DNA of 64,000 nucleotides from Sphaerochaetaceae bacterium (lineage in GTDB: Bacteria > Spirochaetota > Spirochaetia > Sphaerochaetales > Sphaerochaetaceae), in contig CAXXXN010000002.1 of assembly GCA_963677635.2 (NCBI GenBank), positions 4,724 to 68,723 on the forward strand. Reading direction: 5' to 3'. The position numbers were made by a program, and so were the translations under genes. The stretch's first letter is position 1. Every line of letters begins with the position of its first letter. This document shows positions 1,410 through 23,509 of the stretch, piece after piece. The notes below the pieces were generated by a model. That model was given only the letters and a program-made list of their open reading frames with translations, was not told the origin of the DNA and did no database searches.

Positions 1410-1437
1410 AAAAGATTAATACTTTGGAGGGCACTTA

Positions 1438-2559: not shown

Positions 2560-2585
2560 AAAATTAGTTTATTATTGTTAGTTTG

Positions 2586-2620
2586 TTAATATAAGGAACT
2601 TGATAAGTTCCTTATATTAA
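2586..2620 (+). terminator. Rho-independent terminator-like hairpin
   Basis: Perfect 16-bp stem: TTAATATAAGGAACTT, loop gat, AAGTTCCTTATATTAA. It lies just after the 2559 stop. Confidence 0.6.
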
Positions 2621-2731
2621 TGCTCTTTGAGATTAACAATAATGATTTTCATGTTATTAATTATTAGTATTATATTTTTTTAAATATATATTTTATATTC
2701 ATTTATAAAGATTAAATTAAGGGAAACTATA

Positions 2732-3655: not shown

Positions 3656-3698
3656 AAATAAGAGTAATTTTCATAGTTGTTTCAAGTTAATTATTTTC

Positions 3699-3730
3699 TT
3701 GACAAACTTATGATAAGTCTTATAATAAGT
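3699..3730 (+). promoter_or_regulatory. Sigma70-like promoter with two overlapping palindromic operator sites
   Basis: TTGACA (3699-3704), 16-nt spacer, TATAAT (3721-3726). Palindromes are ACTTATGATAAGT (3706-3718) and CTTATAATAAG (3719-3729). Same core as 1378-1409. Confidence 0.6.
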
Positions 3731-3784
3731 ATAACAAAATGATTTTTATGCATTACTGTATGAAAATTAAACGGAGGTTTTTGT

Positions 3785-5065: not shown

Positions 5066-5077
5066 TATGTTAATATT

Positions 5078-5103
5078 TATAGCAGGAGATATCTCCTGCT
5101 ATA
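5078..5103 (+). terminator. Intra-operon hairpin after the binding-protein gene (attenuator or mRNA stabiliser)
   Basis: Perfect 26-bp palindrome TATAGCAGGAGAT/ATCTCCTGCTATA, 13 nt after the stop. Confidence 0.5.
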
Positions 5104-5138
5104 TATTTAGTAACTTTATATAAATAGGATGTTAACAT

Positions 5139-6041
5139 ATGAAAAATAGAATACCGAAGGGTACTTTAGCAAGAGAAAAAGAGAAATGGGCTTATTTGTT
5201 TATTCTTGTTCCTGTTATCTTTTACCTCTTAGTAAGATTTCTTCCAACTATTTATGCTTTTTATCTCTCTTTCACAGATTGGGATATTATTAGCTCCAGT
5301 GCTAACTGGATTGGTTTAAGTAATTATAAGAAGTTATTTTCAGATAAAATATTTTACAAGACTTTATCAAATACTTTTTATTATGTTCTTTATGGATTGC
5401 CTATAAGTATCTTTATTGGTTTTGTCTTAGCTTATAATATCGATAAAGTTAAAATTGGTAGTGGTTTATTTAAAACTGTTTATTTCATGCCTTATATTAC
5501 TTCTATGGTAGCAGTGGCTTGGGTTTGGAGATGGCTTTTCCAACCTGCACCAATTGGTGTCTTTAATAATATCTTAATGTCTATGGGTTTCCCTATGCAA
5601 GAATTTCTTAATTCTGTTCAACAATCAAAAGGTTGTATTTTAGCTGCAACAATTTGGAGTGGTGTAGGTTTTCAGATGATTATTTTTATGGCTGGATTAA
5701 AAGGTATTTCAAAGCAATATTATGAAGCAGCTGAAATTGATGGAGCTTCTTCTTTTAATGTACTAAGATATATCACTCTTCCTTTGCTTAGGAATTCATT
5801 TATATTCCTTTTAATTACTGGAACAATTAGATTTTTAAGAATTTTTACTCAAGTTGTTAATATGACACGTGCCTCTGGAGGTGGACCATTAAATTCTGCA
5901 AAACCTCTTGTATTATATATTTATGATACTGCCTTTAGAAGTTTTGATATGGGATATGCTTCAGCATTAACTGTAATATTATTTTTGATAATACTCTTAA
6001 TTACGCTGATACAAATGAGGGTAACTAGAAATGAAAAATAA
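5139..6041 (+). CDS. Carbohydrate ABC transporter permease (MalF-like)
   Basis: 6 TM helices and an EAA loop (YYEAAEIDGASSFNVLRYITLPLL). Confidence 0.9.
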   Translation: MKNRIPKGTLAREKEKWAYLFILVPVIFYLLVRFLPTIYAFYLSFTDWDIISSSANWIGLSNYKKLFSDKIFYKTLSNTFYYVLYGLPISIFIGFVLAYNIDKVKIGSGLFKTVYFMPYITSMVAVAWVWRWLFQPAPIGVFNNILMSMGFPMQEFLNSVQQSKGCILAATIWSGVGFQMIIFMAGLKGISKQYYEAAEIDGASSFNVLRYITLPLLRNSFIFLLITGTIRFLRIFTQVVNMTRASGGGPLNSAKPLVLYIYDTAFRSFDMGYASALTVILFLIILLITLIQMRVTRNEK

Positions 6042-6849
6042 TAAAGTTAGTGATAAAATTAGATATGTAATATTGTTTGTTTTTGGTTTATTAATGCTAT
6101 TCCCATTTGTATGGATGCTTAGTACTTCAATTAAACAAGGTAGAGAAGTTTATAGTTTATCTTTATTGGTTAAAAGCCCTTCAATTGCAAACTATACTAG
6201 ATTATTTTCAAGTAGTTATTTTGTTCGTTGGTTTTTAAATTCATTTATTGCTGGGACCATTGTTACTTGTTCAATATTATTTTTTGACTCTTTAATGGGC
6301 TATACTTTTGCAAAGCATAATTTTAGAGGGAAAAAGTTAATTTTTATTTTAGTTCTATCAACAATGATGATTCCTACTGAAATGCTTGTTATCCCATGGT
6401 ATTTAATTTCTTCTAAATTTAATTGGGTTGATACTTATTGGGGAATTGTATTTCCAGGATTAATGACAGGTTTTGGTACATTCTTAATGAGACAGTTCTT
6501 TGATACTTTACCTGATGATCTTTTTGATGCAGGAAGAATTGATGGTATGAATGAATTTACTATTTGGGCTCAAATTGGAATTCCTTTAGTAAAAGCTGCT
6601 CTTTCTGCTTTAGCAATATTTAGCTTTGTTGGTAACTGGAATGCGTTCTTATGGCCATTAATTGTTTCAAGTGAAACTCATATGTATACACTCCCTGTTG
6701 GTTTGGCTCTATTTAATGGAGAATTTGCAACAGAATGGGAAATGATTATGACTGGAGCATCTGTTGCAACTATACCAGTTATTATAGTTTACATCATTTT
6801 CCAACGTCAGATTATTGAAGGAATAGCTTTAACAGGAGTTAAAGGATAA
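6031..6849 (+). CDS. Carbohydrate ABC transporter permease (MalG-like)
   Basis: EAA loop (LFDAGRIDGMNEFTIWAQIGIPL). It overlaps the previous gene by 11 nt. Confidence 0.9.
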   Translation: MKNNKVSDKIRYVILFVFGLLMLFPFVWMLSTSIKQGREVYSLSLLVKSPSIANYTRLFSSSYFVRWFLNSFIAGTIVTCSILFFDSLMGYTFAKHNFRGKKLIFILVLSTMMIPTEMLVIPWYLISSKFNWVDTYWGIVFPGLMTGFGTFLMRQFFDTLPDDLFDAGRIDGMNEFTIWAQIGIPLVKAALSALAIFSFVGNWNAFLWPLIVSSETHMYTLPVGLALFNGEFATEWEMIMTGASVATIPVIIVYIIFQRQIIEGIALTGVKG

Positions 6850-6869
6850 ATCTAAGAAAGGAGAAAAAA

Positions 6870-7802
6870 ATGATTCAAGGAATACCCGTTTTTGATTTAC
6901 ATTGCCACTTCCCAGTAGCAGGAGATTATTTCCCTGATTATCCAAAATTTGGAAAGGTTGATTTTGGTAAAGCCAGAATCGAAGGATTTGAAGCAAGAAA
7001 TTATGGGGAGGTTTGGAGAAAAGCATATAATTTTCCAAAACCAGAACCATCCGATGAAGATGATGCTGTTATGGCAGATAAATGGATAAAAGATATTGGT
7101 GCTAAGCAAATAGAAAAAATTGGGTGGACAAGTGGGGGAGGCAATGACAGATTAGAAAAGATTTGTAAAATGTACCCTGACAGATTCTATGGATTTGCTC
7201 ATCATCATCCTGATAGTGAAAATGCAGTTGAAGTTTTAGAAAAAGCTTTTAAAGAACAAAATATGATTGCTTATAAAATTCTAGGACCTATGGTACCAAC
7301 TGATTTAAGTGATAAAAAATATTATCCTCTTTGGGAAGTTTGTCAAAAATATGATAAACCTGTTTTAATTCACTTTGGACTTTTAGGAGCAGCAGGTGGA
7401 ACCCCAGCTGGCATAAACTTAAGTCCATATGCTATTGCTGATGTATCAAAAAAATTTCCTCATGTTAAATTTATAGTTCCGCATTTTGGTTGTACTTATA
7501 TGGAAGATTTACTTCAATTGATGTGGACTAGAGATAATATCTGGGTTGATACTTCAGGATCTAATCAATGGATAAGATGGATGTCTTATAGATTAAGTTT
7601 AGAAGATGTTCAAAGAAAGTTTGTAGAAACCGTCGGGCCAAGTAGAATTATATTCTCAACTGATTCAAGTTGGATGCCAAGAGGTTTTGCATATATCTAT
7701 TTAGAAGAACAACATAAAAACTTCAGATTTCTAAATTTGAATGATAATGAATTACATATGATATTCCATAAAAATGCAGAATATTTGACTGGTTTAATTT
7801 AA
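6870..7802 (+). CDS. Amidohydrolase-2 family metal-dependent hydrolase
   Basis: N-terminal FDLHCHFP, internal VLIHFG and VPHFG, and C-terminal IIFSTDSSW. These match the TIM-barrel amidohydrolase ligand pattern. Confidence 0.6.
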   Translation: MIQGIPVFDLHCHFPVAGDYFPDYPKFGKVDFGKARIEGFEARNYGEVWRKAYNFPKPEPSDEDDAVMADKWIKDIGAKQIEKIGWTSGGGNDRLEKICKMYPDRFYGFAHHHPDSENAVEVLEKAFKEQNMIAYKILGPMVPTDLSDKKYYPLWEVCQKYDKPVLIHFGLLGAAGGTPAGINLSPYAIADVSKKFPHVKFIVPHFGCTYMEDLLQLMWTRDNIWVDTSGSNQWIRWMSYRLSLEDVQRKFVETVGPSRIIFSTDSSWMPRGFAYIYLEEQHKNFRFLNLNDNELHMIFHKNAEYLTGLI

Positions 7803-7818
7803 AGATTTTTATTATAAT

Positions 7819-7855
7819 TTATAGCATACCTAATTGTTTTTTAGATATGCTATAA
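7819..7855 (+). terminator. Terminator-like hairpin
   Basis: TTATAGCATA ... TATGCTATAA, a 10-bp stem with a T-rich loop, 17 nt after the stop. Confidence 0.45.
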
Positions 7856-7944
7856 TTAATTATTTTAAAGAGAAATAACATATATTATAATTAATAAATA
7901 TTTTATTAATTTATGTATTTTTTATATTGTTGAGGGGCTAATTA

Positions 7945-9138
7945 TTGAAAAAACTAACAAATACAATGGACATAAGAGTTTCTAATGCTATTTCAATTTT
8001 ACAAATGTTAAGGCATCAAATTCCAAAAACAAAATCTCAAATAGCTAGTGATACTGGGTTGAGTTTTTCTTCCGCTTCAAATATAGCTACTATTCTAATT
8101 GACAAAGGGCTACTTCAAATTGATGAAAACTCTTTATCTACCGGTGGTAGAAAAGCCGCTTGTTTAAGTTTTAATGGTAATTTTGCTTATTCAATTGTTA
8201 TTGATCTTCATGATTTACGAACAGGGTATCTTGGCCTTGTTAATATGAACAGTGAAATAATAAAAACAATTTCTTTTGAAATTAAATCAAATGATACTTT
8301 AGATGATATTCTATTAAAAATATCAAAAGCTAATGACAATTTAATGAGGGATGTTTCAACCCCTATCATTGGTGTTTGTTGTGCAATAGCTGCAGTCTTT
8401 TTAGAAAATTCAAATATAGTTCTCTCTTGTTCAAATCCTGTTTTTGAAGGAATAAACATAGTTTCAATATTAAAAGATCTTTTTCATAATGATTTTGTTG
8501 TTGTTGAAAATGATGCAAACCTTTCTATTCTTGCTCAAGGTAATAATGACACAACTTCTACTAGTAAAATAAGTATCTTTTTAACACAAGGTGTTGGAAT
8601 GGGTATTATGATACATAACCAACTTTATAAAGGTAAAGATGGAATAGCTGGTGAATTGGGTCATATGAAAGTAAGAGGGGATAGTAGAAAGTGTAAATGT
8701 GGCCACTATGGTTGTTTAAGATTGTTTGTGCCTCTTGAATCTATTGCTTATGATTTAAATGAAATAGAATTATTAGAAAATGGCCTTTCAAATCTTGAAT
8801 ATGCTAAACAACTAGCAATTCGCTATAATGATAATGAAGTTGAAGTAGTTCAAAGAATTGAATTGGCAAAACAAAAGCTTGGTGAAGCTTTAGCTGTTCT
8901 CCTTGATATTTTTAATCCAGATGAATTTATAATTTGTGGAAATATGGTAGAATTATTTCCTATCTTTGATAATGGTGTTAAAGATATTTGTAGAAATAAT
9001 TCTAAACTTGCAAAACCTTTTGATTCAAAAATAAGCTTTGATACTAGAACTCCAAGTCAATTAATGCAAATTGGAGGAAGTGAAAGATTATTTACTTCTT
9101 GGTTACAAAATGGTTTTGAAAGCTATATTTCAAATTAA
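7945..9138 (+). CDS. ROK family transcriptional regulator
   Basis: TTG start with GAGGGG RBS 7 nt upstream. It has an N-terminal wHTH and the ROK signature GELGHMKV...CKCGHYGCL zinc motif. Confidence 0.85.
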   Translation: MKKLTNTMDIRVSNAISILQMLRHQIPKTKSQIASDTGLSFSSASNIATILIDKGLLQIDENSLSTGGRKAACLSFNGNFAYSIVIDLHDLRTGYLGLVNMNSEIIKTISFEIKSNDTLDDILLKISKANDNLMRDVSTPIIGVCCAIAAVFLENSNIVLSCSNPVFEGINIVSILKDLFHNDFVVVENDANLSILAQGNNDTTSTSKISIFLTQGVGMGIMIHNQLYKGKDGIAGELGHMKVRGDSRKCKCGHYGCLRLFVPLESIAYDLNEIELLENGLSNLEYAKQLAIRYNDNEVEVVQRIELAKQKLGEALAVLLDIFNPDEFIICGNMVELFPIFDNGVKDICRNNSKLAKPFDSKISFDTRTPSQLMQIGGSERLFTSWLQNGFESYISN

Positions 9139-10819
9139 TCTCTTTTTTAATAGTATTTAGTAATAAAATAGCAGTTAATTTATAATTTATTAATGTTGAT
9201 ATTGAAATTGATATCTTAGGTTCAGTGCCTGATTTTCTTATATAAATTAAACCAATCTCTTTATCTTCTTTATTTAATAATTTGTAGCCTAATACATTAT
9301 ATTCATAATCTAATGAGAATTCTTTGTAGTTAAATATATCGAATTCTAATATCTTATTATTTAATTCATTCCAAATATTTGAACCATTATAGAAATCTTC
9401 AAGTGGAAAGTCGTAAAAGGTAATTTTCTTATTAAACCCAGTATCATATTTTTTAATATCAAATTGAAGAGCAATTAATGCAGTAAGAAGACCATTACCA
9501 CTTAAAAGTGGTGGATCAAATTCATCATTTTTTATAATAACGTGACCTGATCTTTCGCAGCCTACAAACATAGCATCTTCATCAATAGAATTAATAAGAT
9601 ATCTATCTCCAACACCAACTTCATCGGTTGTCCAACCAAGTTCATTTTTTATTACAGAAGAGAGAGCATAATCACTTTCAATCGTTAAACAGAACTGACC
9701 TTTTTGATTATAATTACTAATATTCTTTGCAATAATATAACCTAGCATATCACCATTATAAACAAATACACATTGTTTTGTATTATCATATTTTAATATG
9801 AAAGCTCTATCCCCATCTCCATCACAAACAATAGCATAAAGAGTGGAGTCTAATCTTTTACCATCGAACAATAAACGATTAATAGAAGGATTCTTAGACT
9901 CTTTTACTATAAAGGGTAGATCTTCTAAAAGAGCAACGCCACAGTCTTTATTTATCTCTTTAACACCTAACTCACAAGCTAATTCAACATACTCTATGTT
10001 TTCACTATTTAAATAGTTTTTTGCTATGGATGAAAACGCACCGTTAGCTAAATCAAGATAGATAGGAGTGTTATTTAGAGTATTTTTTACTTTATTAAAA
10101 TCAACTTGATGGAATATCTTTTTAAATATATTAATAGGATATTCTTCTTTAACAGTATCAACATTTTTTATTTCAATATCACTCTTATCAAGAGTAAAGA
10201 AATTATAGGTTAATTGAAATTCACCGTATTTAGAGAAAGAGTATAATTTTTTCCCATCTATGAATAATTTAATCCCATTATATGTTGGGGGATTGTGAGA
10301 AGCAGTAATCATAATTGCTGGTATATTCTTATTTAGTGCATAAGCAACTAGAAAAGGAGTAGGGATTATTCCTAAATCAATTATCTTTATATTATTTTCA
10401 CTTAATGCAGTAATTACTGCATTTTTTATATTGTTGTTATTTAATAATTCTCTACCATCTTCAGCTATAACTATTTGATTAAGATTATTATCAAGCATTT
10501 TAATAAAAGCATTAATATAATGTTCAACAAATTTTGGTGTTAATTCTTTATTAAATATAAAAGAATTAAGAAAATTGTCATTAAATTTATTTTCTTTAGC
10601 AATGCCTCTAACCCCATCAGTGCCGGGAATTTTATAAGCACAACTATTTATTAATGTATCTAAATTATTATTATTTTTTTTAATAAAAAAATCTAATTTA
10701 TTAATATCTATTATAATATCAAAATCATATCTTTCTTCTATTATTGCTTTTATATTTCTTACTATATCACTTGGCTTTTCAACAAACTCCATTAAATCAA
10801 AATCAAAAAACTTTACCAT
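9092..10819 (-). CDS. Phosphohexomutase family protein (phosphoglucomutase / phosphomannomutase-like)
   Basis: Motifs seen: GTDGVRG, active-site ITASHNP, metal loop CDGDGDR, and GCERSGH. The ORF extends to 10885, but the ATG at 10819 (MVKFFDF) has an AAGG RBS. Confidence 0.85.
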   Translation of the reverse strand: MVKFFDFDLMEFVEKPSDIVRNIKAIIEERYDFDIIIDINKLDFFIKKNNNNLDTLINSCAYKIPGTDGVRGIAKENKFNDNFLNSFIFNKELTPKFVEHYINAFIKMLDNNLNQIVIAEDGRELLNNNNIKNAVITALSENNIKIIDLGIIPTPFLVAYALNKNIPAIMITASHNPPTYNGIKLFIDGKKLYSFSKYGEFQLTYNFFTLDKSDIEIKNVDTVKEEYPINIFKKIFHQVDFNKVKNTLNNTPIYLDLANGAFSSIAKNYLNSENIEYVELACELGVKEINKDCGVALLEDLPFIVKESKNPSINRLLFDGKRLDSTLYAIVCDGDGDRAFILKYDNTKQCVFVYNGDMLGYIIAKNISNYNQKGQFCLTIESDYALSSVIKNELGWTTDEVGVGDRYLINSIDEDAMFVGCERSGHVIIKNDEFDPPLLSGNGLLTALIALQFDIKKYDTGFNKKITFYDFPLEDFYNGSNIWNELNNKILEFDIFNYKEFSLDYEYNVLGYKLLNKEDKEIGLIYIRKSGTEPKISISISTLINYKLTAILLLNTIKKEINLKYSFQNHFVTKK

Positions 10820-11304
10820 TCTTATACCTTTATAATAACTATTTAATATACTTATTATAAGTATTATAAAAAGAAAGTCAAACAATATTTAATAGTTTTA
10901 ATAATAATCAAATAGTATTATTTTAACTTTTTTATATTGAAGCGTATTTTCAAAGTTGACCCTTTTTCAACTGAAAATTTAAATAAAACAATACCATATG
11001 AAAATAGAGTGGAAAAATATTTTTTTTGAGGTTCTCACTAGAAAAAAGATTTGTTTATTTCAAGCTTACATTAGAATATTTACATTAATAAATGTTGTAA
11101 TAAAAAATATTTGGGATATAATGAAAAAAAGTAAACTAATTTAAAATATTATTATTAGGTAAAATGACTATTGCTAAAAAAATAATTTAAGAAAGTAATT
11201 TTTTATATGAATATAATTCTAATTAAAAAATATTAAATAATCGCGAGTTAATATTTATGGTTTGTAAACAAATAGCATAAAATCTTTTAGGAGAAAAATA
11301 TTAC

Positions 11305-12114
11305 ATGATACGGAAACATCAAGAAATAATATCAATGGATATTAGGCAAAAAATCTCTACAAGATATCAACGTATAACTAGTGCAGTAAATAGAGAATTT
11401 TGGGGAATTAATAGTGAACAACTTCATAGTTTTTTTGTTGGATCTTATGGAAGAGGAACTGCTATAGATACTAGTGATTTAGATATATTAGTTGAATTAC
11501 CTACTATAGAATTTAATCGATATAATTATTGTAATGGCAATGGGCAATCTAGATTATTGCAAGCAGTAAGATTTGCATTAATAAATACTTATCCCAATAG
11601 TGATATTAGAGCGGATGGTCAAATTATAAAAATAAATTTTACTGATAGTATTAAATTTGAAATATTACCTGCTTTTAAAAATGAAAATTCTTATTATAAC
11701 TCAGAGAAAACCTATATATATCCCGATTCAAATATGGGAGGGAACTGGAAATCAACAAATCCTAAAAAGGAACAAAGTACTATGAAGGAGAAGAATAAGG
11801 GTAGTAATGGTTTGCTTTTTGATACTTGTAAGCATATAAGATATATAAGAGATACTTATTATAAGAGCTACCATTTATCAGGCATTTTGATAGATAGTTT
11901 TGTTTTTGAAGCTATAAATTCTTGGCGTTGGGTTGATGGAGAAGGTGCTTCTCCCGTTTTAGATTATGAAAAATATTTATATGAATATTTTATTCAAAAA
12001 AAAGATTGGTATAATTATTATGGATTATCTGCACCGGGTAGTAATCAGAATGTTGAATGTAGAGATGATTTAGTTTGTTTGAATAAAGTATTATATAAAA
12101 TAAAAACAGAATAA
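11305..12114 (+). CDS. SMODS-type (minimal CD-NTase-like) nucleotidyltransferase
   Basis: Pol-beta NTase motifs GSYGRGTAIDTSDLDILV and a third acidic strand KFEILPAF. A downstream NWKSTNP...CKHIRYIRD helix is typical of SMODS. AGGAG RBS. Confidence 0.75.
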   Translation: MIRKHQEIISMDIRQKISTRYQRITSAVNREFWGINSEQLHSFFVGSYGRGTAIDTSDLDILVELPTIEFNRYNYCNGNGQSRLLQAVRFALINTYPNSDIRADGQIIKINFTDSIKFEILPAFKNENSYYNSEKTYIYPDSNMGGNWKSTNPKKEQSTMKEKNKGSNGLLFDTCKHIRYIRDTYYKSYHLSGILIDSFVFEAINSWRWVDGEGASPVLDYEKYLYEYFIQKKDWYNYYGLSAPGSNQNVECRDDLVCLNKVLYKIKTE

Positions 12115-12129
12115 AATGAAGGTAATAAT

Positions 12130-12675
12130 ATGAATCAAGAATATAAATTAGATTTATTAAACCAAATTAGGGAATCATATGGGAGAGTAACATATTCATA
12201 TACTACTTATTTGAAAAAAATGAATAGGTTAGAAAAAAAATTTAATAATTTAAAGACATTTCAAATTATTTTGTCAGCTATAACAGCAGGGGGGTTTGTT
12301 GGGACTCTTTTTTCTGAATATTTATTTGCTATTATAGGAGCTATTATTTCAACACTTTTATTAACAATTAATGTATATTTAAAAGATTTTAAATTAAATG
12401 AAGAAATATCTTTATGCAGGAGAGCTTCAGATGATTTATGGGAAATAAGAGAAGAATATATTTCATTATTAACAGATTCTGTGGAATTGAATACTACACA
12501 ATTAAAAGAAAAACGCGATGATGAAATAAAAAAATTATCTATTATTTATAAAAAATATCCAAAGACAGATAAAAAAAGTTATACCGCTGCTCAAACGGCT
12601 TTAAAGTCAGAAGAAGAACAATTTTTTTCAGATGAGGAATTAAACAAAATGCTTCCAAAACATTTGAGAAATTAA
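12130..12675 (+). CDS. SLATT domain two-TM putative effector
   Basis: 181 aa. An N-terminal helix is followed by the hydrophobic hairpin FQIILSAITAGGFVGTLF / FAIIGAIISTLLLTINVYL and then a charged helical tail. It starts 15 nt after the SMODS gene. Confidence 0.65.
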   Translation: MNQEYKLDLLNQIRESYGRVTYSYTTYLKKMNRLEKKFNNLKTFQIILSAITAGGFVGTLFSEYLFAIIGAIISTLLLTINVYLKDFKLNEEISLCRRASDDLWEIREEYISLLTDSVELNTTQLKEKRDDEIKKLSIIYKKYPKTDKKSYTAAQTALKSEEEQFFSDEELNKMLPKHLRN

Positions 12676-12707
12676 TTTTATTAATTAAATTAATTGATTT
12701 TTGTTTT

Positions 12708-12735
12708 TTGAAATTGAATTTTAAGATAGTATAAA
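12708..12735 (+). promoter_or_regulatory. Possible internal promoter ahead of the KAP NTPase gene
   Basis: TTGAAA (12708-12713), 16-nt spacer, TATAAA (12730-12735) in the 81-nt gap. No terminator hairpin is seen in the gap. Confidence 0.3.
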
Positions 12736-12756
12736 AGGATAAAAATATTAAGGCTT

Positions 12757-14535
12757 ATGTGGCAAGATAGTGAAACAAATAGTGATTATATAGATTTTGA
12801 ATATTTAGCTGATTTAATAGATTCTATTATTAAAAATGACAATTTATTACCAGCAAGTATTGGAGTATTTGGTAATTGGGGCAGTGGTAAATCCAGTATA
12901 ATGAGATTGAGTGAGCAAAAACTTTCTCAAGAAAAAGATATTTTAACCATTTCTTTTAATTCATGGTTATTTGAAGGTTATGAAGATGCTAAAAAATCTT
13001 TAATTAATATAATAATTGACACTTTTGAAGAAAAAAACAAAGATACACTTAAATATGAAATAAATGAAATTAGAAAAAAAATATCTTTCCTTGATATTTC
13101 AAAAATTGTATTTAAAAATATTCCGAATATAATAACTTCAGTTGTAAAACCTGGAGTATCATTTTTATCTTGGTTAGATATTGCAAAATCAATATCTAAT
13201 GATATAAAAGAATTAAATAATGATGATGAATTTACGTATGGGAAAAAGATTAGAAATGATATAGTAAAATTTAGAGAAAATTTTAATAGATTAATAGAAA
13301 AAAGCGATTTTTCAAGAATAGTTGTATATATAGATGAATTAGATCGATGTAATACTGATACTATTTTAGAGACTTTGGAAGCTATGCGATTATTTTTATT
13401 TTGTGGAAAAGTTGCATTTGTTATTGGGGCTGATGAACGACAAATTTCTTTAGCAATAAAGAATAAATATTCAGATATCTTTTTTGATGAAAATGAAATA
13501 ATTAATATTGGGAAAGAATATTTAGAAAAAATAATTCAATATCCTATAAGGATACCAATTATGACTATACCAGAAACTGAATTGTATCTAACTTGTTTAT
13601 TGCTTAGTGATTCATTAAAAGAAAATGCAAGTGATTTTAATGAAATCAAAATGAGTTTTATTAATGATTTTAGGGGAAATAATTCTAATTTTATACTTGG
13701 GACAAATGAAAAATATAATAAATATCAAGAAATAATAAATACTTGTTATAATACTTCAAAATTAATATCAAGCTTATTAAATGTTTGTTTAAATGGTAAT
13801 CCAAGACAATTTAAAAGATTTTTAAATGAATTTGAGATGCGAAAAAATATAGCAAAATTTAAGAATGTAGAAATCGATAATCAAATCTTAATAAAAATGA
13901 TGATATTGCAATATGTTAAACCTTCAATTTATGATGACTTTATTAAATTAATTTATGAAGATAAGTTAAAAAATAATTTAGATTTTTATAAAAATAAAAG
14001 TGAAAAAACAAAAAAAAAATGGGGTGATGATCAATGGTTAAGTAATTGGATCAATCAAGAACCTGATATAATTAATATTGATTTAAATCGATATGTTTCT
14101 TTGTCTAGATCAAATAAAGTATATAATTTTGCTTCACTTTCAAATCATTTATCAGTTAATTCTCAAAATATTTTAAAAGCGTATAGTGCTAATTCTAAAA
14201 TAAAAATAAGACAAAGTAAATTGTTAATTGATGAAATTGATGTAATGGAAGGAAACACATTAATAAAAATATTTTTTGAAAAAATGAGTAAAAGTAATAA
14301 TAACGATATGATTAAGGTTTTTATAGCAGGGATAGTAGATATTGGTATTATAAAAGAGGAGTGTGCTTACGAAGCGTTATCTCAATTAGAAAAAATAGAT
14401 AATAAAAATATAGATGCTAGTATCGTTTATAGAGTAAAAGATTTTTCTAAAAGTTCAAATGTAGAAGAAAAATATAAAGCATTAAAAGATTTATGGATTA
14501 GAAATAACTCAAAACTAAAAAAATTTTTTGATTAG
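12757..14535 (+). CDS. qatA: KAP family P-loop NTPase (QatA-like)
   Basis: Walker A GNWGSGKS (residues 39-46) and the KAP-type Walker B VVYIDELDRC. The product is 592 aa with a long helical C-terminus. Confidence 0.7.
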   Translation: MWQDSETNSDYIDFEYLADLIDSIIKNDNLLPASIGVFGNWGSGKSSIMRLSEQKLSQEKDILTISFNSWLFEGYEDAKKSLINIIIDTFEEKNKDTLKYEINEIRKKISFLDISKIVFKNIPNIITSVVKPGVSFLSWLDIAKSISNDIKELNNDDEFTYGKKIRNDIVKFRENFNRLIEKSDFSRIVVYIDELDRCNTDTILETLEAMRLFLFCGKVAFVIGADERQISLAIKNKYSDIFFDENEIINIGKEYLEKIIQYPIRIPIMTIPETELYLTCLLLSDSLKENASDFNEIKMSFINDFRGNNSNFILGTNEKYNKYQEIINTCYNTSKLISSLLNVCLNGNPRQFKRFLNEFEMRKNIAKFKNVEIDNQILIKMMILQYVKPSIYDDFIKLIYEDKLKNNLDFYKNKSEKTKKKWGDDQWLSNWINQEPDIINIDLNRYVSLSRSNKVYNFASLSNHLSVNSQNILKAYSANSKIKIRQSKLLIDEIDVMEGNTLIKIFFEKMSKSNNNDMIKVFIAGIVDIGIIKEECAYEALSQLEKIDNKNIDASIVYRVKDFSKSSNVEEKYKALKDLWIRNNSKLKKFFD

Positions 14536-14550
14536 TAGGAGTAAAAATAA

Positions 14551-15258
14551 ATGGGAACATCAGGGCCTTATAAAGGACAAAAAGGAATTTTACCCAGAAA
14601 AAAAGATGATGATATTACTTGGACAGTAGCGAAAACATTTATGTCAAAATATATTACATCCGGGGGGAATGTTGGTACACCTAAAACTGTAGTTAAAAAT
14701 TATTTTAAAGCTGCTAATGGTTCTAATTCCTTTTTAAATCAAACAAAAAAAATTATTAGTGTTATATCAGATTTTAACAACATTTTAGGAAGTTTTATAG
14801 AACAAGGGCTTGAAAAAACATTTGAGGAATTAGGGATATCAATAGTTGATAAAGATATAAATGAAGCTTTTTCTATGTTAATAAATGTTATTTGTCCTGA
14901 ATCTTCAACAAAAAACGATATTGCTTTAAGACTGGCTATTATAAATACGCTAGATTCCCTTAGTAATTTAGATGAAGGTATTGAAAAAATATTAAATAAT
15001 TTTGATTCTTCACATGTTGATCTTTTAATTGAGATTTTTATTTCTGAAATTTTTTGGCAAAATATTATGATAGATTATGGATTTTCATTTGAAAAATATG
15101 GGGAAGATACTGGGCAATTGGTTCTAAGAGAAAAAGAGATACAAGATTATATCTATACTGTTGTAAGTTTAGAGTATGATAAAAATAAACAAGCAACACT
15201 TTCAGAAAAAAATATTGCTGAATTATATAAGAAAGTTCTAATAATAATGGAGGATTAG
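14551..15258 (+). CDS. Small protein of unknown function, QatB-like by position, N-terminus Met-Gly
   Basis: AGGAG RBS 9 nt upstream. The protein starts MGTSGPYKGQKG and has no recognisable catalytic motif. It sits between the KAP NTPase and QueC-like genes as QatB does. Confidence 0.5.
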   Translation: MGTSGPYKGQKGILPRKKDDDITWTVAKTFMSKYITSGGNVGTPKTVVKNYFKAANGSNSFLNQTKKIISVISDFNNILGSFIEQGLEKTFEELGISIVDKDINEAFSMLINVICPESSTKNDIALRLAIINTLDSLSNLDEGIEKILNNFDSSHVDLLIEIFISEIFWQNIMIDYGFSFEKYGEDTGQLVLREKEIQDYIYTVVSLEYDKNKQATLSEKNIAELYKKVLIIMED

Positions 15259-15259
15259 T

Positions 15260-16540
15260 TTGAATATATATTGTACAAATGAAAAAATAGAACCTCAAGA
15301 ACCTTATGATTATTACATAGATTTATCTGATAAAAAAAAGGTTGGATATGCTTTTTGGGATAAAATCCTAAAATTCCCTAAAGAATATTCTCCACTTTCA
15401 ATTGATTTATTATTTATTTCAATATTTGTATTTTGTACTGACCGTCTGATAACAAGAGAAACTCAAAATGATTCATGGATTAGAAAAGCATGTTTAAATA
15501 TTCCAGTTTCATCTCCTGATTTTTGGGATATTGAGAAAAATAGTTTAATTACATTATTGAATTTTTTGAGTGGAGACAAATGGGATTTTATTTTTCGCCA
15601 AAAAGAATTTTTTAATGAAAAAAAATATTATAATTCATTAAAAGTAAAAAAAGTTGAGGTTAAGAATTATAAATATGTATGTATGTTATCAGGGGGGCTT
15701 GATTCATATATAGGTGCAATTGATTTATTAGAATCTCAAAATAAAAACATATTGTTTGTGAGTCATTATGGAGGTGGAAAGGGAACAAAAGAATATCAAG
15801 ATGCAATTTTTAAAATATTAAAAGATATTTATAAATTAAACAAAAAAGATTATATTCAATATTATGTAGCTTGTAAACATGCTAAAGAAGATTCTACTAG
15901 AACACGATCATTTATGTTCTTTTCTCATGCAATAGCGTTAGCTTCTGCTATGAAAGATAATGTCAAGTTAATAATTCCTGAGAATGGATTTATTTCTTTA
16001 AATATTCCTATTACACAAGCTCGCTTTGGTAGCAGTAGTACTAGAACAACTCATCCATTTTATATGAATTTGTTAAGGATTTTAGTTAAATCAATGGGGT
16101 TAAATTTAGAAATAATTAATCCTTATCAAACAAAAACTAAAGGTGAAATGATAAAAGAGTGTAAAAATATTAGTTTATTGGAAGATACATATTTTAATAC
16201 TATGTCTTGTTCTCATCCTGATCAAGGGAGATATAAAGGAATAAAGTATCCAATCCATTGTGGTTGTTGCATACCTTGTATAATTCGAAGAGCTGCAATT
16301 AACGAAGGGTTTTGCATAGATAGAACAGAATATTTAGATGAAAAAATAAATTTAAATGATACTGCTAAAATTAATAAAAATGCTTACAATTTAATGTTAA
16401 AGCGAAATGAAATGACTAATACAAAATTATTAATTCAAGAGTCAGGAGTTTTAGAAAAAGATATTTTGGAAATTGCAAATATGTTTGATCGAGGTGTAGA
16501 AGAAATAAAGAATTTTTTTATTTCTTTAGAGGATGAGTAA
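15260..16540 (+). CDS. qatC: QueC-like PP-loop ATPase (QatC-like)
   Basis: TTG start 1 nt after the preceding stop, with GGAGG 6 nt upstream. It carries the PP-loop CMLSGGLDS at about residue 140 and a C-terminal Cys cluster (CSHPD...HCGCCIPCIIRR) like the QueC zinc site. Confidence 0.7.
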   Translation: MNIYCTNEKIEPQEPYDYYIDLSDKKKVGYAFWDKILKFPKEYSPLSIDLLFISIFVFCTDRLITRETQNDSWIRKACLNIPVSSPDFWDIEKNSLITLLNFLSGDKWDFIFRQKEFFNEKKYYNSLKVKKVEVKNYKYVCMLSGGLDSYIGAIDLLESQNKNILFVSHYGGGKGTKEYQDAIFKILKDIYKLNKKDYIQYYVACKHAKEDSTRTRSFMFFSHAIALASAMKDNVKLIIPENGFISLNIPITQARFGSSSTRTTHPFYMNLLRILVKSMGLNLEIINPYQTKTKGEMIKECKNISLLEDTYFNTMSCSHPDQGRYKGIKYPIHCGCCIPCIIRRAAINEGFCIDRTEYLDEKINLNDTAKINKNAYNLMLKRNEMTNTKLLIQESGVLEKDILEIANMFDRGVEEIKNFFISLEDE

Positions 16541-16542
16541 TT

Positions 16543-16821
16543 TTGGATAATGATAAATTGAAAAATAAAGATAATTTAAATATATATTTATCATTAGAAG
16601 AGAAAAATGATATTAAATATGTTTTAATTCCAGATGAAAGTGTTTTTAGAAGATAAATCAAAGAAAAAGCCATTCTGCATCAAGACCAGTTTAATAAAGC
16701 AGGAAAGAATTTTGATTATTCTAAGAATGATGATGAATTTTTTTCAGAAGATATTTTTTATTTTAGAGATGAAAATTATATTGTTTTTGGAGATTATTCA
16801 ATAATTGAAGAGGATTTTTAA
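16543..16821 (+). pseudogene. Decayed ORF fragment of unknown family
   Basis: Frame 1 reads LDNDKLKNK...VFRR*IKEK...FGDYSIIEEDF*, with an in-frame TAA at 16654-16656. The reading continues in another frame at 16824. Confidence 0.4.
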
Positions 16822-16823
16822 CA

Positions 16824-17195
16824 TTAGGCTTTGCTTCATATGCAATTGCTATTCATATAGTATATTTTAGAAATAAAGAGTTAAGAGTTCATCATTTTGT
16901 TTCAGACTCAAATGAGGGTATTGAAAATCCTGCATTAAACAAATCAAATTTAAAAGATATTGAAGAACATATCTCTAAACCACATAAGAGGACCGATAAT
17001 AATTTAGATTATTTACCAACTCAATATATTGCTGATTTAATTAAGTCGCAATCTCTATTTGATGGAATAAAATTTAAAAGCACTTTATTTGATAAAGGGT
17101 TTAATATAGCTATTTTCAATCCTATTTTATTCAAATGTATTGCTGTAAATAACATTGAAATAAATTCAATTGAATACAATAGTACAAATTTATAA
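16824..17195 (+). pseudogene. Start-less ORF remnant with RES-domain-like C-terminus
   Basis: A 124-codon open frame with no Met. Its C-terminus (DYLPTQYIADLIKSQSLFDGIKFKSTLFDKGFNIAIFNP) resembles the Ser-containing C-terminal half of RES toxins. The N-terminal Arg/Glu half was not found. Confidence 0.35.
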
Positions 17196-17437
17196 TTCTA
17201 TTTAATCTATTCTTTTTTATTTAGGATTATAAAACAAGCCAAATATAGATATTATCTATTTAATAAGAATTTTGTTTTTGTCTGTATTTTATGGAGAATA
17301 ATATGCCTTTAATTCCTTTTGCGTATGAAATACTTGCCCCAATAATTTAGTGATATTTTATAAAAATATAAAAATTATCAAAAAATATTTACTTGAATTC
17401 AGTTTTTATCTACATATTATGTATAAAGTATATAAAA

Positions 17438-18523
17438 ATGAGTTTTACTGATTATAACAAATTAATAAAGGAATTATATATACCAGAAATAATTAATCTA
17501 ATTACAGGTATTTATGAATATAAGGGTAAACAACAATTATTTATAGAATCTAAGGCAGATGTGTTAGGCTCTTTATTAAATATTGCAGAAATTCAAAGTA
17601 TTGAATCTTCAAATAGAATTGAATGAATTTATACTTCAAATAAAAGAATAAAAGAATTAATTAATGATAGTACTAAACCAATCGATAGAAATGAAGAAGA
17701 AATATTAGGATATAGAGATGTATTCACAACAATACATGAGAATTATAATTTTATTTCTATTTCACCTAATATAATTTTACAACTTCACAGAGATTTATAT
17801 AAATATAATAATAACTATTTTGTTGGCATGTGGAAAAATTCTGATAATATTATTGAAGGAATTGATCAAAGTGGAAAACATTTTGTTAGATTTAAACCTT
17901 TAGCTGCATATAAAACCCCTGATGCTATGAGTTCACTTTGTGATGAATATAATAAAGCAATTATAGAAAATAAAATTTAACCTTTATTACTAATTACTAA
18001 ATTTATATTAGATTTTTTATGTATTCATCCTTTTCCTGATGGAAATGGAAGAATGAGTAGATTATTGACTATTTTATTGTTATATAAAGAAGGTTATCTA
18101 GTTCCTAAATATATTAGCTTTGAAAAGCTTATTGAAGATACAAAAGATGAATATTATATAAGCTTATATGAAAGTTCATTAGGTTGGGTAGCCAATAATA
18201 ATTCTAATATTCCATTTATTAAATATTACTTATAACTTTTATTAAAAGCATATAAAGAATTTTCATTAAGAGTAGATTTTATTGATATTAATTCAAAAAT
18301 AAGTAAAGGCGATAGAATTAAAAATATATTTGATGATATGTTAAATAGTTATTCCAAAGCTGATATTTTAAATATATGTCCAGATATAAGTAAAATTATG
18401 GTTGAGAAAACTCTTAATCAATTATTAAATGAAAAATTTATTATTAAACTAGGGCATAGCAAAAGTACAAAATATATTAGAAATAATACTTTGTGCGAAA
18501 GTGTAAAATTATCATATGTTTAA
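17438..18523 (+). pseudogene. Fic family protein gene inactivated by three in-frame stop codons
   Basis: A single frame throughout carries SIESSNRIE-TGA-IYTS, the Fic motif HPFPDGNGRMSR and a C-terminal wHTH. Stops are at 17624-17626 (TGA), 17977-17979 (TAA) and 18233-18235 (TAA). Confidence 0.8.
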
Positions 18524-18566
18524 AGTTTTAATACTAATATTAATTTAATATTATAATCACAATTTT

Positions 18567-18600
18567 AAGAGGCATATAAACTATTGTTTGAATGCCTCTT
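18567..18600 (+). terminator. Terminator-like hairpin
   Basis: AAGAGGCAT, a 16-nt loop, ATGCCTCTT, then a T-rich tail. It lies between convergent genes. Confidence 0.5.
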
Positions 18601-18715
18601 TCTATTGAATTTATATTTAAAGAAATAATGTCTTAGAATATTATATATGAATTAATAATAGCTTTAAGATATAATAAATATTCTTTTATTAAGCCTCAAG
18701 GTTATTTATTAATAT

Positions 18716-19342
18716 CTATTTAAATATATCATTAAAAGCCATAATATCTTTAAAAAGTGTTTCTTTTGCTAGATCTGTTTTACCTTCTTTTAATAAATTG
18801 ATTAAATAAAGGTGAGTTGCAGCATCAGTTATTTTATGAGCATCCCAGTTTAAATGAAAATATTGATAAGCGTATCTAGAGCATTTATTTAAAGTTGCTT
18901 GGAGGGTATCTTTTAATACTTGATTATTAGTAAAACTACAGAGGAGATTGTGGAAATCCATATTATGGAACCAGTGTTTTGAGACTTCTTTTTCTTCAGC
19001 AAGTTGTCTTCCAACTTTTACATGTTCCATTAATTTTTCAATTATCTCATCGTTAATATTGTTTTTATAAAGATCGAACGCTCCAAGTTCTAGTATTGCT
19101 CTAAGTTCTAAGGTATCTTGTAATTCCTTCATACTAATTTGTGTTAATTGATAGCCACATCTTGGGATACTTTTTAGCATATTTTCTGAACAAAGTTGAG
19201 TTAACGCTTCTCTAACTGGAGCTTTGCTTACTCCATATATTTCCATTAAAGATTTTTCTGTGATAATTTCATTAAGAGAATATTCTCCTTTTAATATTTT
19301 AGAATATTCACTATCGTGGATTTCAGTTTTTAAGTTTTTCAT
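18716..19342 (-). CDS. GntR family transcriptional regulator (FCD-type C-terminal domain)
   Basis: wHTH segment ITEKSLMEIYGVSKAPVREALTQLCSENMLKSIPRCGY plus a helical effector domain. It is the last gene of the minus-strand sugar operon and a paralogue of 34166..34816. Confidence 0.85.
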   Translation of the reverse strand: MKNLKTEIHDSEYSKILKGEYSLNEIITEKSLMEIYGVSKAPVREALTQLCSENMLKSIPRCGYQLTQISMKELQDTLELRAILELGAFDLYKNNINDEIIEKLMEHVKVGRQLAEEKEVSKHWFHNMDFHNLLCSFTNNQVLKDTLQATLNKCSRYAYQYFHLNWDAHKITDAATHLYLINLLKEGKTDLAKETLFKDIMAFNDIFK

Positions 19343-22552: not shown

Positions 22553-23509
22553 CTATATTCTAGCTGCTTTAACAGCATTTTTTATTCTTTGATAAGAAAT
22601 TTCTGTAGGTAGCGTACAATCAGCTCCAAATATAAATTTCTTTTTTCCTTGTTTATCAATAATAGATTTAATTTCATTTTCTAATTCTTCATCAGTTCCA
22701 TCTACTAAAACACCACTTCTATTTGCAATACCACCCATTATTGTAGTATCGTTAAATAGTTCTCTTCCTTCTTCTAAACTAAAGTTTGTTTCATAAACAC
22801 CCCAGTTAACAATATCAGCTAAATCTGTGTATGATTTGTAGCGTGACATTTCAAGATTCTCTTTGCAAGCATGTAACAAAACTTTTGCATTATTATCTTT
22901 AGCTGTTTTCATTATTTGTTTGTCAAAAGGTGCTATTATATTTGAAAATTCTTGATCAGTGAAATAATGTTTTTCAGCCCCTAGTGCTGCTAAGTATATT
23001 CCATCAGCTCCAGCTTTTATAACCTCTTCAGTTAAATAACACATTGCATCAGTTATTCTTTGACAAGCATCTGTGTAGGGAATTGGATTTTCTCTATAAT
23101 GTTTTACTTGTAATTCTCTAACAGGAACATAGCCATATCTTGCTTCAATAGGGTGAATACTTGATGCACATACACTATGTATTGTTACTAGAGAAAATGT
23201 ATCACTGTCGCATTTGTCTAAGATTCTTTTAACAAGTTCAACTTCTTTTTGAATAAATGATGATTTTCTAGTAAATGTTGGAATTTTATTCCAATCTTCA
23301 GCTTTTTTTATTTCACCAAAATCAGGAACTAAATTCTCATTCATTATCTTCATTATATCTACATCAGTTTCTTTATAGAAATCTAGATGAGCCTTTATTA
23401 CTTCTTCAGTGCTAGTTATTTCTTTTGGAAAGTGTAGTGAAAAACTTACTGGTACAAAATCTACTTCAGTACCATTTATGGCACTTAATACTCTTTCACG
23501 TTTTGTCAT
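22553..23509 (-). CDS. Uroporphyrinogen decarboxylase (URO-D) family protein
   Basis: The N-terminus (MTKRERVLSAINGTEVDFVPVSF) and the 318-aa TIM-barrel layout are typical of URO-D/MtaA-like proteins. It is the first gene of the operon. Confidence 0.55.
   Translation of the reverse strand: MTKRERVLSAINGTEVDFVPVSFSLHFPKEITSTEEVIKAHLDFYKETDVDIMKIMNENLVPDFGEIKKAEDWNKIPTFTRKSSFIQKEVELVKRILDKCDSDTFSLVTIHSVCASSIHPIEARYGYVPVRELQVKHYRENPIPYTDACQRITDAMCYLTEEVIKAGADGIYLAALGAEKHYFTDQEFSNIIAPFDKQIMKTAKDNNAKVLLHACKENLEMSRYKSYTDLADIVNWGVYETNFSLEEGRELFNDTTIMGGIANRSGVLVDGTDEELENEIKSIIDKQGKKKFIFGADCTLPTEISYQRIKNAVKAARI

What the first reader, a model, noticed from the sequence alone, without database searches (positions are those of the whole stretch)
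11305..16540. Five-gene SMODS / SLATT / KAP NTPase / Met-Gly protein / QueC-like cluster: possible hybrid of a CBASS-like pair and a TatD-less Qat module
Five same-strand genes are separated by 15, 81, 15 and 1 nt.
- Gene 1 is a minimal pol-beta nucleotidyltransferase of SMODS / CD-NTase type (GSYGRGT...DLDILV...FEILPAF).
- Gene 2 is a SLATT-type two-TM protein, the membrane effector class that comparative genomics links to SMODS.
- Gene 3 is a KAP P-loop NTPase (GNWGSGKS, IDELDRC).
- Gene 4 is a 235-aa orphan protein.
- Gene 5 is a QueC-like PP-loop ATPase (SGGLDS plus a C-terminal Cys knuckle) with an N-terminal extension of about 135 aa.

Genes 3-5 reproduce the order and content of QatA-QatB-QatC of the Qat defence system. 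The TatD nuclease gene (QatD) is missing.

QueC-like enzymes are otherwise known as accessory genes of type IV CBASS. There they accompany a CD-NTase and a TM effector together with TGT- and OGG-like genes, and those two gene types are absent here.

The locus therefore has the CD-NTase-like + 2TM + QueC-like logic of type IV CBASS and the KAP + QatB partners of Qat. It is either two adjacent systems or a single undescribed hybrid in which SMODS/SLATT replace the nuclease effector. I do not know of a description of this arrangement.
Basis: partly seen in the sequence, partly recalled or inferred. Interest (0 to 1): 0.9.

Follow-up and report, generated by a model that had tools for sequence, protein, structure and literature searches.

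The report
CBASS pair beside truncated Qat system
Two already-described anti-phage systems, a two-gene CBASS and a Qat system that lacks its nuclease gene, lie side by side in a fast-changing defence hotspot, and nothing indicates that they form a new hybrid.

Summary
The five genes are real, at the stated coordinates, and every family assignment holds. They are a CD-NTase (SMODS), a SLATT_4 two-TM effector, QatA, QatB (N-terminus MGTS) and QatC. No QatD is present, not even as a remnant.

The hybrid reading is not supported:
- None of 80 species-representative loci with QatC relatives has a cyclase or SLATT gene within 10 kb.
- None of 89 loci with close cyclase relatives has any Qat gene, while 88 of them have a SLATT_4 partner.
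- The cyclase lacks the N-terminal Gly tail that QueC-like enzymes modify in type IV CBASS. QatB has the equivalent motif.

Near-identical relatives (97.5-98.3% DNA identity in both flanks) carry other cargo at the same site: SIR2-HerA, Gabija plus PD-Lambda-1, a PDC-S21 candidate, or nothing.

QatD's absence coincides with a junction at the qatC stop codon. There the sequence runs into codon ~105 of a dead sce7725-family gene. That remnant is fused by a 1-kb deletion to a RES gene tail, and a SoFic pseudogene follows.

Best reading: a type I CBASS next to an independently acting QatABC. This fits published evidence that QatBC alone defends. The finding is ordinary, with a few minor leads.

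The parts
10890..10986 (.). Left edge of the variable hotspot. Homology with four near-identical relatives ends here, just past the start of the phosphoglucomutase-like gene (9092-10885, minus strand).
   Evidence: blastn: window 1-10889, 1-10900 and 1-10986 match L185, L184 and L182/L183 at 97.5-98.0% identity. After that point each relative carries different genes.
11305..12114 (+). CD-NTase (SMODS) cyclase of a two-gene type I CBASS. It has GSYGRGT and DLD catalytic motifs and no N-terminal Gly-rich tail (it starts MIRKHQ).
   Evidence: Pfam SMODS 6.7e-34 and PADLOC Cyclase 1.6e-122. The catalytic residues are invariant among 29 relatives. The only solved relative is CdnD 9ntn, a weak hit at 7.6e-4.
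12130..12675 (+). SLATT_4 two-transmembrane protein, the predicted membrane effector of the CBASS pair.
   Evidence: Pfam SLATT_4 6e-49 covering profile positions 1-165 of 165; PADLOC Effector 2TM 5.7e-63. It is adjacent to the cyclase in 88 of 89 related loci.
12676..12756 (+). 81-nt gap between the two modules. It holds an A/T-only 9-bp hairpin followed by a T-run, then TTGAAA (12708-12713), a 16-nt spacer and TATAAA (12730-12735).
   Evidence: Sequence read; fold (z-score 1.04, not significant). The consensus scan reports no G+C-rich terminator here. Whether the modules are transcribed separately is not settled.
12757..14535 (+). QatA, a KAP-family P-loop NTPase (Walker A GNWGSGKS, Walker B IDELDRC).
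   Evidence: KAP_NTPase 5.8e-40, PADLOC QatA 1.7e-88, NCBIfam QatA 1.8e-103. It is 46% identical over about 612 aa to QatA of canonical QatABCD loci.
14551..15258 (+). QatB, with the conserved N-terminal MGTS acceptor motif (MGTSGPY).
   Evidence: PADLOC QatB 6.8e-14 and NCBIfam QatB 2.1e-16. Weak match to the QatB chain of 9vll, E = 0.009. The MGTS motif is essential according to PMC13279940.
15260..16540 (+). QatC, a QueC-like PP-loop ATPase with N- and C-terminal extensions. It has SGGLDS, the STRTTHP motif and the Cys cluster C316/C333/C336/C339.
   Evidence: NCBIfam QatC equivalog 434 bits, above the cut-off of 280. Matches PDB QatC at 7e-63. It carries every column that is invariant among 31 QatC sequences.
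16537..16939 (+). Dead internal fragment of a sce7725-family gene, roughly codons 105-239, with one in-frame stop and one frameshift. It begins at the qatC stop codon.
   Evidence: blastn: window 16537-16939 matches L181 10314-10716 at 91%. The L181 gene scores 4e-91 against NCBIfam sce7725_fam. Junction shown; translation.
16932..17195 (+). The 3' 88 codons of a RES-domain gene, joined to the sce7725 fragment by a roughly 1008-nt deletion with GCAT microhomology.
   Evidence: Pfam RES 5.2e-6. 100% identical to the C-terminus of the 360-aa RES protein P0250. Window 16932 onward matches L181 11724 onward at 98.3%.
17435..18523 (+). SoFic-type Fic gene inactivated by three nonsense codons.
   Evidence: Pfam Fic 8e-15 on the conceptual translation. 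The intact 352-aa orthologues in L181 and L185 score 3e-31 and 2e-33 against PADLOC SoFic. The stops replace Gly, Glu and Ser codons.

Best explanation
Window 10.9-18.7 kb is a small defence island in a chromosomal hotspot between a phosphoglucomutase-like gene and a GntR/ABC-transporter operon. It holds two separate, already known anti-phage systems placed next to each other, followed by dead remnants of older cargo.

(1) Type I CBASS. The CD-NTase senses infection and makes a cyclic nucleotide signal. That signal activates the SLATT_4 two-TM protein, which damages the membrane and aborts the infection. This mechanism is inferred from the families, not shown here.

(2) Qat without QatD. QatC uses ATP to activate a carboxylate substrate, probably 7-carboxy-7-deazaguanine, and attaches it to the N-terminal Gly2 amine of its bound partner QatB. 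The QatBC complex is the defensive core, and QatA, a DNA-binding KAP NTPase, widens the range of phages covered. This is inferred from published work on the E. coli and P. aeruginosa systems.

QatD is missing because the qat segment ends at a recombination or deletion junction at the qatC stop codon. The junction is shown. Whether the donor ever had qatD is not known. The system is therefore expected to work as QatABC, with a narrower phage range than QatABCD.
For: Family assignments.

No linkage on the Qat side:
- 0 of 80 GTDB species-representative QatC loci (10-kb flanks), and 0 of 10 further loci, contain a cyclase or SLATT relative.
- Their 116 upstream neighbour ORFs are heterogeneous: R-M types I-III, AriA, SoFic, mad3, AbiE, integrases. 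No family occurs in more than 5 of them, and SMODS is not among the families seen twice or more.

No linkage on the CBASS side:
- 0 of 89 loci (1.08 Mb) with 55-69% identical cyclases contain QatA, B, C or D. 88 of them have SLATT_4.
- 77 of 80 metagenome loci have SLATT_4 adjacent on the same strand, in either gene order. No third gene recurs in more than 16 of 80 loci, and the recurrent ones are HsdR, BrxL, PglZ, TnpV and KilA-N.
- The closest cyclase relatives are plain two-gene pairs.

Hotspot:
- The left flank is 97.5-98% identical in L182-L185, and the right flank is 98.3% identical over 9.2 kb in L181.
- The cargo there is instead SIR2-HerA + SoFic, PD-Lambda-1 + Gabija + sce7726/sce7725/RES + SoFic, a PDC-S21 candidate, or no defence genes.

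Junctions and pseudogenes.

Published work:
- QatBC alone defends against lambda-vir, and QatA and QatD broaden the range (PMC13279940).
- A two-gene CD-NTase + SLATT6 operon defends (bioRxiv 10.1101/2023.05.21.541620).

Natural QatD-less relatives: L001/L011 and L006 (QatBC only), and L044 (QatABC).
Against: - The nearest database relatives of both modules are only 60-69% identical, so the window's own lineage is unsampled. A lineage-specific coupling could not have been seen.
- The gap between the modules is only 81 nt, with no convincing terminator, so co-transcription is possible.
- All five genes are intact while everything downstream has decayed. That would also fit selection on the five as a set.
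- The loci in the surveys are not phylogenetically independent.
- No experiment supports activity of this particular CBASS or Qat.
Confidence: 0.86

Rival explanations
1. The five genes form one hybrid system. QatABC regulates or senses for the CD-NTase, as Cap9 does in type IV CBASS, or the SLATT protein has replaced QatD as the effector.
For: All five genes are on one strand with short gaps. QatD is absent. The 81-nt gap has no clear terminator. QueC-like enzymes do regulate CD-NTases in type IV CBASS. The only solved relative of the cyclase is the type IV CdnD, although the hit is weak at E = 7.6e-4.
Against: The modules never co-occur in 90 QatC loci or 89 cyclase loci. The cyclase starts MIRKHQ, and its relatives also lack the M(G/S)G(G/S)GG tail that is universal in type IV CBASS. 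QatB keeps its own MGTS acceptor, so QatC has its normal substrate. QatC is a full-length QatC equivalog of 426 aa, not a Cap9-type enzyme of about 185 aa. QatD's place is occupied by a recombination scar, not by an alternative effector.
Confidence: 0.04
2. The Qat part is a decaying, non-functional remnant. Loss of QatD was the first step of erosion in a region that is already full of pseudogenes, and only the CBASS pair is active.
For: Everything from 16537 to 18523 is dead: the sce7725 fragment, the RES tail and the SoFic gene with three stop codons. QatD is kept in 74 of 77 evaluable species-representative loci and in 98.1% of a QatD-seeded census (PMC13434339). Other Qat loci show decay through IS insertions (L003, L038).
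Against: QatA, QatB and QatC are full-length. They retain every invariant residue, both Walker motifs, the MGTS motif and the zinc cysteines. QatBC alone is experimentally sufficient against some phages. Intact QatBC-only and QatABC loci exist in other genomes.
Confidence: 0.1

Closest known systems
Type I CBASS with a SLATT-family transmembrane effector (for example EcCdnF04-SLATT6; bioRxiv 10.1101/2023.05.21.541620)
   Same: It is a two-gene operon of a CD-NTase and a SLATT two-TM protein with no Cap2/Cap3, HORMA/TRIP13 or Cap9/Cap10 genes. The pair is the conserved unit in 88 of 89 related loci.
   Different: The effector belongs to SLATT_4, not SLATT_6. The cyclase is short (269 aa) and scores below the NCBIfam CBASS_cyclase_b cut-off (79 bits against 200). 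Its product and trigger are unknown, and no member of this exact clade has been tested as far as I could find.
QatABCD anti-phage system (Gao et al. 2020; PMC13279940, PMC13376578, PMC13434339)
   Same: QatA-QatB-QatC are in the canonical order with tight spacing. QatC is an equivalog. QatB has the MGTS N-terminus. QatA is a KAP NTPase.
   Different: There is no QatD (TatD nuclease). The locus ends at a junction at the qatC stop codon. QatA and QatB score below the NCBIfam equivalog cut-offs because the proteins come from a divergent lineage.
Minimal QatBC module (experimental truncation in PMC13279940; natural loci L001/L011 and L006 found here)
   Same: A QatD-less configuration built around the QatB-QatC core. 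The closest QatC relatives of the window (60-61% identity) are natural QatBC-only loci.
   Different: The window keeps QatA.
Type IV CBASS (CD-NTase + effector + Cap9 QueC-like + Cap10 TGT-like, with or without Cap11)
   Same: A CD-NTase, a membrane effector and a QueC-family enzyme lie within 5 kb of each other.
   Different: There is no Cap10 or Cap11. The QueC-family protein is QatC-type (426 aa, remodelled active site), not Cap9-type (about 185 aa). The cyclase has no N-terminal Gly-rich acceptor tail.

Membership tests
CBASS type I | A CD-NTase (SMODS / pol-beta fold) with the GS...DxD catalytic motifs | tested here: met
   Pfam SMODS 6.7e-34 and PADLOC Cyclase 1.6e-122. G46-S47, D58 and D60 are invariant in the alignment of 29 sequences. 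The NCBIfam CBASS_cyclase_b score of 79 bits is below its equivalog cut-off of 200.
CBASS type I | An adjacent effector gene in the same operon | tested here: met
   SLATT_4 lies 15 nt downstream. PADLOC Effector 2TM 5.7e-63. The pairing is conserved in 88 of 89 related loci.
CBASS type I | No ancillary genes (Cap2/3, HORMA/TRIP13, Cap9/10) | tested here: met
   No such ORFs flank the pair. No third gene recurs around relatives of the pair. The neighbouring QueC-like gene is QatC-type, not Cap9-type.
CBASS type I | Cyclic nucleotide synthesis on infection and nucleotide-dependent activation of the effector | not testable with these tools
   This needs biochemistry. SLATT_4 has no recognised nucleotide-sensor domain.
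Qat (QatABCD) | QatC: a QueC-like PP-loop ATPase with Qat-specific extensions and motifs | tested here: met
   NCBIfam NF041925 434 bits, above 280. PDB QatC 7e-63. SGGLDS, STRTTHP and the Cys cluster are all present.
Qat (QatABCD) | QatB immediately upstream of QatC, with the N-terminal MGTS glycine motif | tested here: met
   It starts MGTSGPY and its stop lies 1 nt before the qatC start. PADLOC QatB 6.8e-14. NCBIfam 60 bits is below the cut-off of 100.
Qat (QatABCD) | QatA: a KAP-family NTPase upstream of QatB | tested here: met
   KAP_NTPase 5.8e-40 and PADLOC QatA 1.7e-88. NCBIfam 347 bits is below the cut-off of 600. It is 46% identical over its full length to QatA of canonical loci.
Qat (QatABCD) | QatD: a TatD-family nuclease downstream of, and overlapping, qatC | tested here: not met
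   There is no ORF, no tblastn hit and no profile hit downstream. The sequence after the qatC stop codon is an sce7725 fragment. QatD is present in 74 of 77 evaluable relatives.
CBASS type IV | A CD-NTase N-terminal extension beginning M(G/S)G(G/S)GG, the acceptor of deazaguanylation | tested here: not met
   The cyclase starts MIRKHQEIIS. The consensus of its relatives starts MSxxVxKHGEIIS. The feature is described as universal in type IV.
CBASS type IV | A Cap9 (short QueC-like) and Cap10 (TGT-like) gene pair | tested here: not met
   The five proteins give no TGT-like hit. The QueC-like protein hits only QatC models. Cap9 has a median length of about 185 aa and a different motif set.

The most novel reading that the evidence does not exclude
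In this lineage the CBASS pair and QatABC were acquired as one cassette and are functionally coupled. Modified QatB, or QatA, would feed into CD-NTase activation, or the SLATT pore would serve as the killing arm that QatD-less Qat lacks. That would be a new route by which a QueC-type protein modification controls nucleotide signalling without Cap10 and without a Gly-tailed cyclase.
Probability: 0.04. Interest if true: 0.7.

Novelty: new member of a known kind. Interest (0 to 1): 0.15.

Why it matters
As a candidate for a new defence architecture it does not hold up. It is a divergent example of two catalogued systems sharing a defence hotspot.

Its modest value lies elsewhere:
- It gives a natural QatD-less QatABC, and its closest relatives are natural QatBC-only loci. 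These match the recently published minimal QatBC unit, and the published QatD-seeded census could not have detected such forms.
- Five near-identical genomes with different cargo at one site make a clean example of defence-island turnover, with mapped junctions.
- The dead remnant points to an uncharacterised sce7726-sce7725-RES gene triad that may deserve its own look.

Tried and rejected
- QatD elsewhere or degraded. tblastn with 80 QatD proteins and a permissive QatD profile search of the six-frame fragments from 16400-18700 found nothing. The one weak hit in the window (E = 0.001, 23042-23476) is a URO-D family protein.
- RES as a replacement effector in QatD's slot. I first read 16543-17195 as one frameshifted RES pseudogene starting 2 nt after qatC. 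The homology search showed a chimera instead: the first 59% is an sce7725-family fragment and the last 40% is the tail of a separate RES gene. Both derive from an older sce7726-sce7725-RES module that is intact in L180 and L181. No QatC locus has a RES gene after qatC.
- Island att sites. A 24-nt direct repeat (10696 and 18704) brackets the island. It lies in coding sequence, no copy was found in L181, and similar repeats are common in this A/T-rich DNA, so it is probably chance. The window has no tRNA gene.
- Terminator or promoter in the 81-nt gap. There is only an A/T hairpin with a non-significant fold and a by-eye -35/-10 pair. Inconclusive.
- Exact look-up of the window's own QatC in the contig index found nothing. 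The five proteins are singletons in the protein collection.
- The Science version of the deazaguanylation paper was not held, so I used the bioRxiv version.
Full report
**Observation**

The five same-strand ORFs are at the stated coordinates, with gaps of 15, 81, 15 and 1 nt, and all quoted motifs are present.

Profile searches confirm every assignment:
- Gene 1 is a SMODS CD-NTase (Pfam 6.7e-34; PADLOC Cyclase 1.6e-122).
- Gene 2 is a full-length SLATT_4 two-TM protein (Pfam 6e-49; PADLOC 2TM effector 5.7e-63).
- Gene 3 is QatA, a KAP NTPase (PADLOC 1.7e-88; NCBIfam 1.8e-103, below the equivalog cut-off).
- Gene 4 is QatB (PADLOC 6.8e-14) and starts MGTSGPY.
- Gene 5 is QatC (NCBIfam equivalog 434 bits against a cut-off of 280). 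It matches the solved QatC structures 9zee and 9vlk at about 1e-62.

QatC carries every residue that is invariant among 31 QatC sequences, including SGGLDS, STRTTHP and the zinc cysteines.

**Is QatD really missing?**

Yes. I built a QatD profile from 83 relatives and ran tblastn with their proteins. Nothing is found after qatC. The only weak hit in the window is a URO-D family enzyme in a sugar operon.

**What lies after qatC**

I first took 16543-17195 for a frameshifted RES pseudogene sitting in QatD's slot. The homology search showed it is a chimera. The first 59% matches sce7725-family proteins of about 300 aa at 87-88% identity. The last 40% is identical to the C-terminus of a 360-aa RES protein.

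In two related genomes (L180, L181) an intact sce7726-sce7725-RES triad is present. blastn places the pieces as follows:
- Window 16537-16939 matches the internal part of sce7725 at 91%.
- Window 16932-26112 matches L181 from the RES tail onward at 98.3% over 9.2 kb.

The two pieces are joined by a deletion of about 1 kb with GCAT microhomology. Homology on the left begins at the qatC stop codon. The Fic gene that follows has three nonsense codons where L181 and L185 have an intact SoFic of 352 aa.

So the qat segment ends at a junction with older, now dead, cargo.

**The site is a hotspot**

A look-up of a permease from the left flank found four loci in related genomes. Window 1-10889/10986 is 97.5-98% identical to them. 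After the phosphoglucomutase-like gene they carry different genes:
- L185: SIR2-HerA, then SoFic.
- L182 and L183: a PDC-S21 candidate plus an ATPase.
- L184: ordinary sugar genes.

L181, which shares the right flank, carries PD-Lambda-1, Gabija, the sce7726-sce7725-RES triad and SoFic.

The block at about 10987-16536 (CBASS pair plus QatABC) is therefore strain-specific cargo. It is also lower in G+C than its flanks, at 21-25% against 27-31%.

**Are the two modules linked elsewhere?**

On the Qat side, a scan of one genome per species returned 80 loci with QatC relatives of 40-60% identity and 10-kb flanks.
- Iterated profile searches find QatA, QatB and QatD in almost all of them, and no relative of the cyclase or the SLATT protein in any.
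- QatD is present in 74 of the 77 loci where it can be judged.
- The exceptions are L011 (QatBC only), L044 (QatABC) and L038 (split qatA with an IS next door).
- The 116 ORFs just upstream of these Qat loci are a mixed bag of R-M systems, AriA, SoFic, mad3, AbiE and integrases. No family occurs in more than 5 of them, and SMODS is not among the recurrent ones.
- The two closest QatC relatives (60-61% identity) are QatB-QatC pairs with nothing else. The next closest are canonical QatABCD loci beside R-M systems.

On the CBASS side, 89 loci with cyclases 55-69% identical to the window's (1.08 Mb in all) contain no Qat gene, and 88 of them have a SLATT_4 partner.
- The pair occurs in both gene orders.
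- No third gene recurs in more than 16 of 80 loci.
- The recurrent neighbours are HsdR, BrxL, PglZ, TnpV and KilA-N.

**Mechanistic compatibility with a hybrid**

In type IV CBASS the QueC-like Cap9 modifies Gly2 of a Gly-rich N-terminal tail of the cyclase, and that tail is reported as universal. The window's cyclase starts MIRKHQ, and its relatives have no such tail either. QatB has the MGTS motif that is essential in Qat.

QatC here is the long, remodelled QatC type, not the short Cap9 type. The cyclase's only solved relative is the type IV CdnD, but the hit is weak at E = 7.6e-4.

**Most likely function**

There are two independent systems.

The CBASS part is a cyclase-to-signal-to-SLATT membrane effector system that aborts infection. 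This is inferred from the families. A CD-NTase + SLATT6 two-gene operon has been shown to defend.

The Qat part works through the QatBC core. That core alone protects against lambda-vir in two tested systems, and QatA and QatD broaden the range. The window's QatABC should therefore be active with a narrower range. This is an inference.

Co-transcription across the 81-nt gap cannot be excluded. There is only an A/T hairpin with a T-run and a by-eye promoter.

**Limits**

- The nearest relatives of both modules are distant (60-69% identity).
- The five proteins are singletons in the protein collection.
- The surveyed loci are not independent of each other.
- Nothing here is experimental.

**Verdict**

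This is a new, divergent member of two known kinds of system, located in a defence hotspot, with QatD lost at a mapped junction. Interest is low.

Noticed in passing
window 16537-17195; L180 9145-11987; L181 9145-11987: A three-gene sce7726 - sce7725 - RES module is intact in two related genomes in different contexts, and the window keeps only a dead remnant of it. NCBIfam gives family names only. PADLOC has no model for sce7725 or this RES protein. The three papers that mention sce7725 do not address its function. It is a candidate uncharacterised defence or toxin-antitoxin module.
   Followed up: partly
L001/L011 9288-11311; L006 7288-9338; L044 7376-11230: Natural QatB-QatC-only loci occur in a Sphaerochaetaceae MAG and in a metagenome contig, and a natural QatABC without QatD occurs in a Bacilli MAG. 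These are natural counterparts of the experimentally minimal QatBC unit. The published census was seeded on QatD and could not have detected them.
   Followed up: partly
window 10890-18715 compared with L181-L185: Near-identical genomes (97.5-98.3% in the flanks) carry different defence cargo at or near this site: SIR2-HerA + SoFic; PD-Lambda-1 + Gabija + sce7726/sce7725/RES + SoFic; a PDC-S21 candidate + ATPase; or none. SoFic recurs at the right-hand end of the cargo.
   Followed up: yes
L184 and L185 (both ENA ERZ21831251 ctg13062l, at 3.46 Mb and 0.12 Mb): The same 3.53-Mb contig holds two copies of the roughly 11-kb MatE...ROK-PGM segment. Each is about 98% identical to window 1-10890, and each is followed by different genes. 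This is either a real segmental duplication or an assembly artefact.
   Followed up: no
window 17435-18523: The SoFic-type Fic gene carries three nonsense codons (in place of Gly, Glu and Ser) and diverges about 8% from the intact L181 copy, against 1.7% for the surrounding 9 kb.
   Followed up: partly
window 10696-10719 and 18704-18727: A 24-nt direct repeat (22 of 24 identical) brackets the island. Both copies lie in or at the ends of coding sequence, and no copy was found in L181, so it is probably chance.
   Followed up: partly
L003 5576-6940 and 9843-11306: In one otherwise canonical QatABCD locus an IS110 transposase gene sits between qatA and qatB, and an ISL3 element splits qatD. This is an example of Qat decay by insertion sequences.
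   Followed up: no
L100-L179: The cyclase-SLATT_4 pair occurs in both gene orders: SLATT first in 60 of 80 metagenome loci, usually with a 4-nt overlap, and cyclase first, as in the window, in 17.
   Followed up: no
window 18716-19342, 24803-25483, 34166-34816, 50105-50752: There are four GntR/FCD regulators, each next to sugar-uptake or sugar-catabolism genes. Window 34175-34821 is 69% identical at the DNA level to the L181 counterpart of the 18716-19342 gene, which points to paralogous sugar operons.
   Followed up: no
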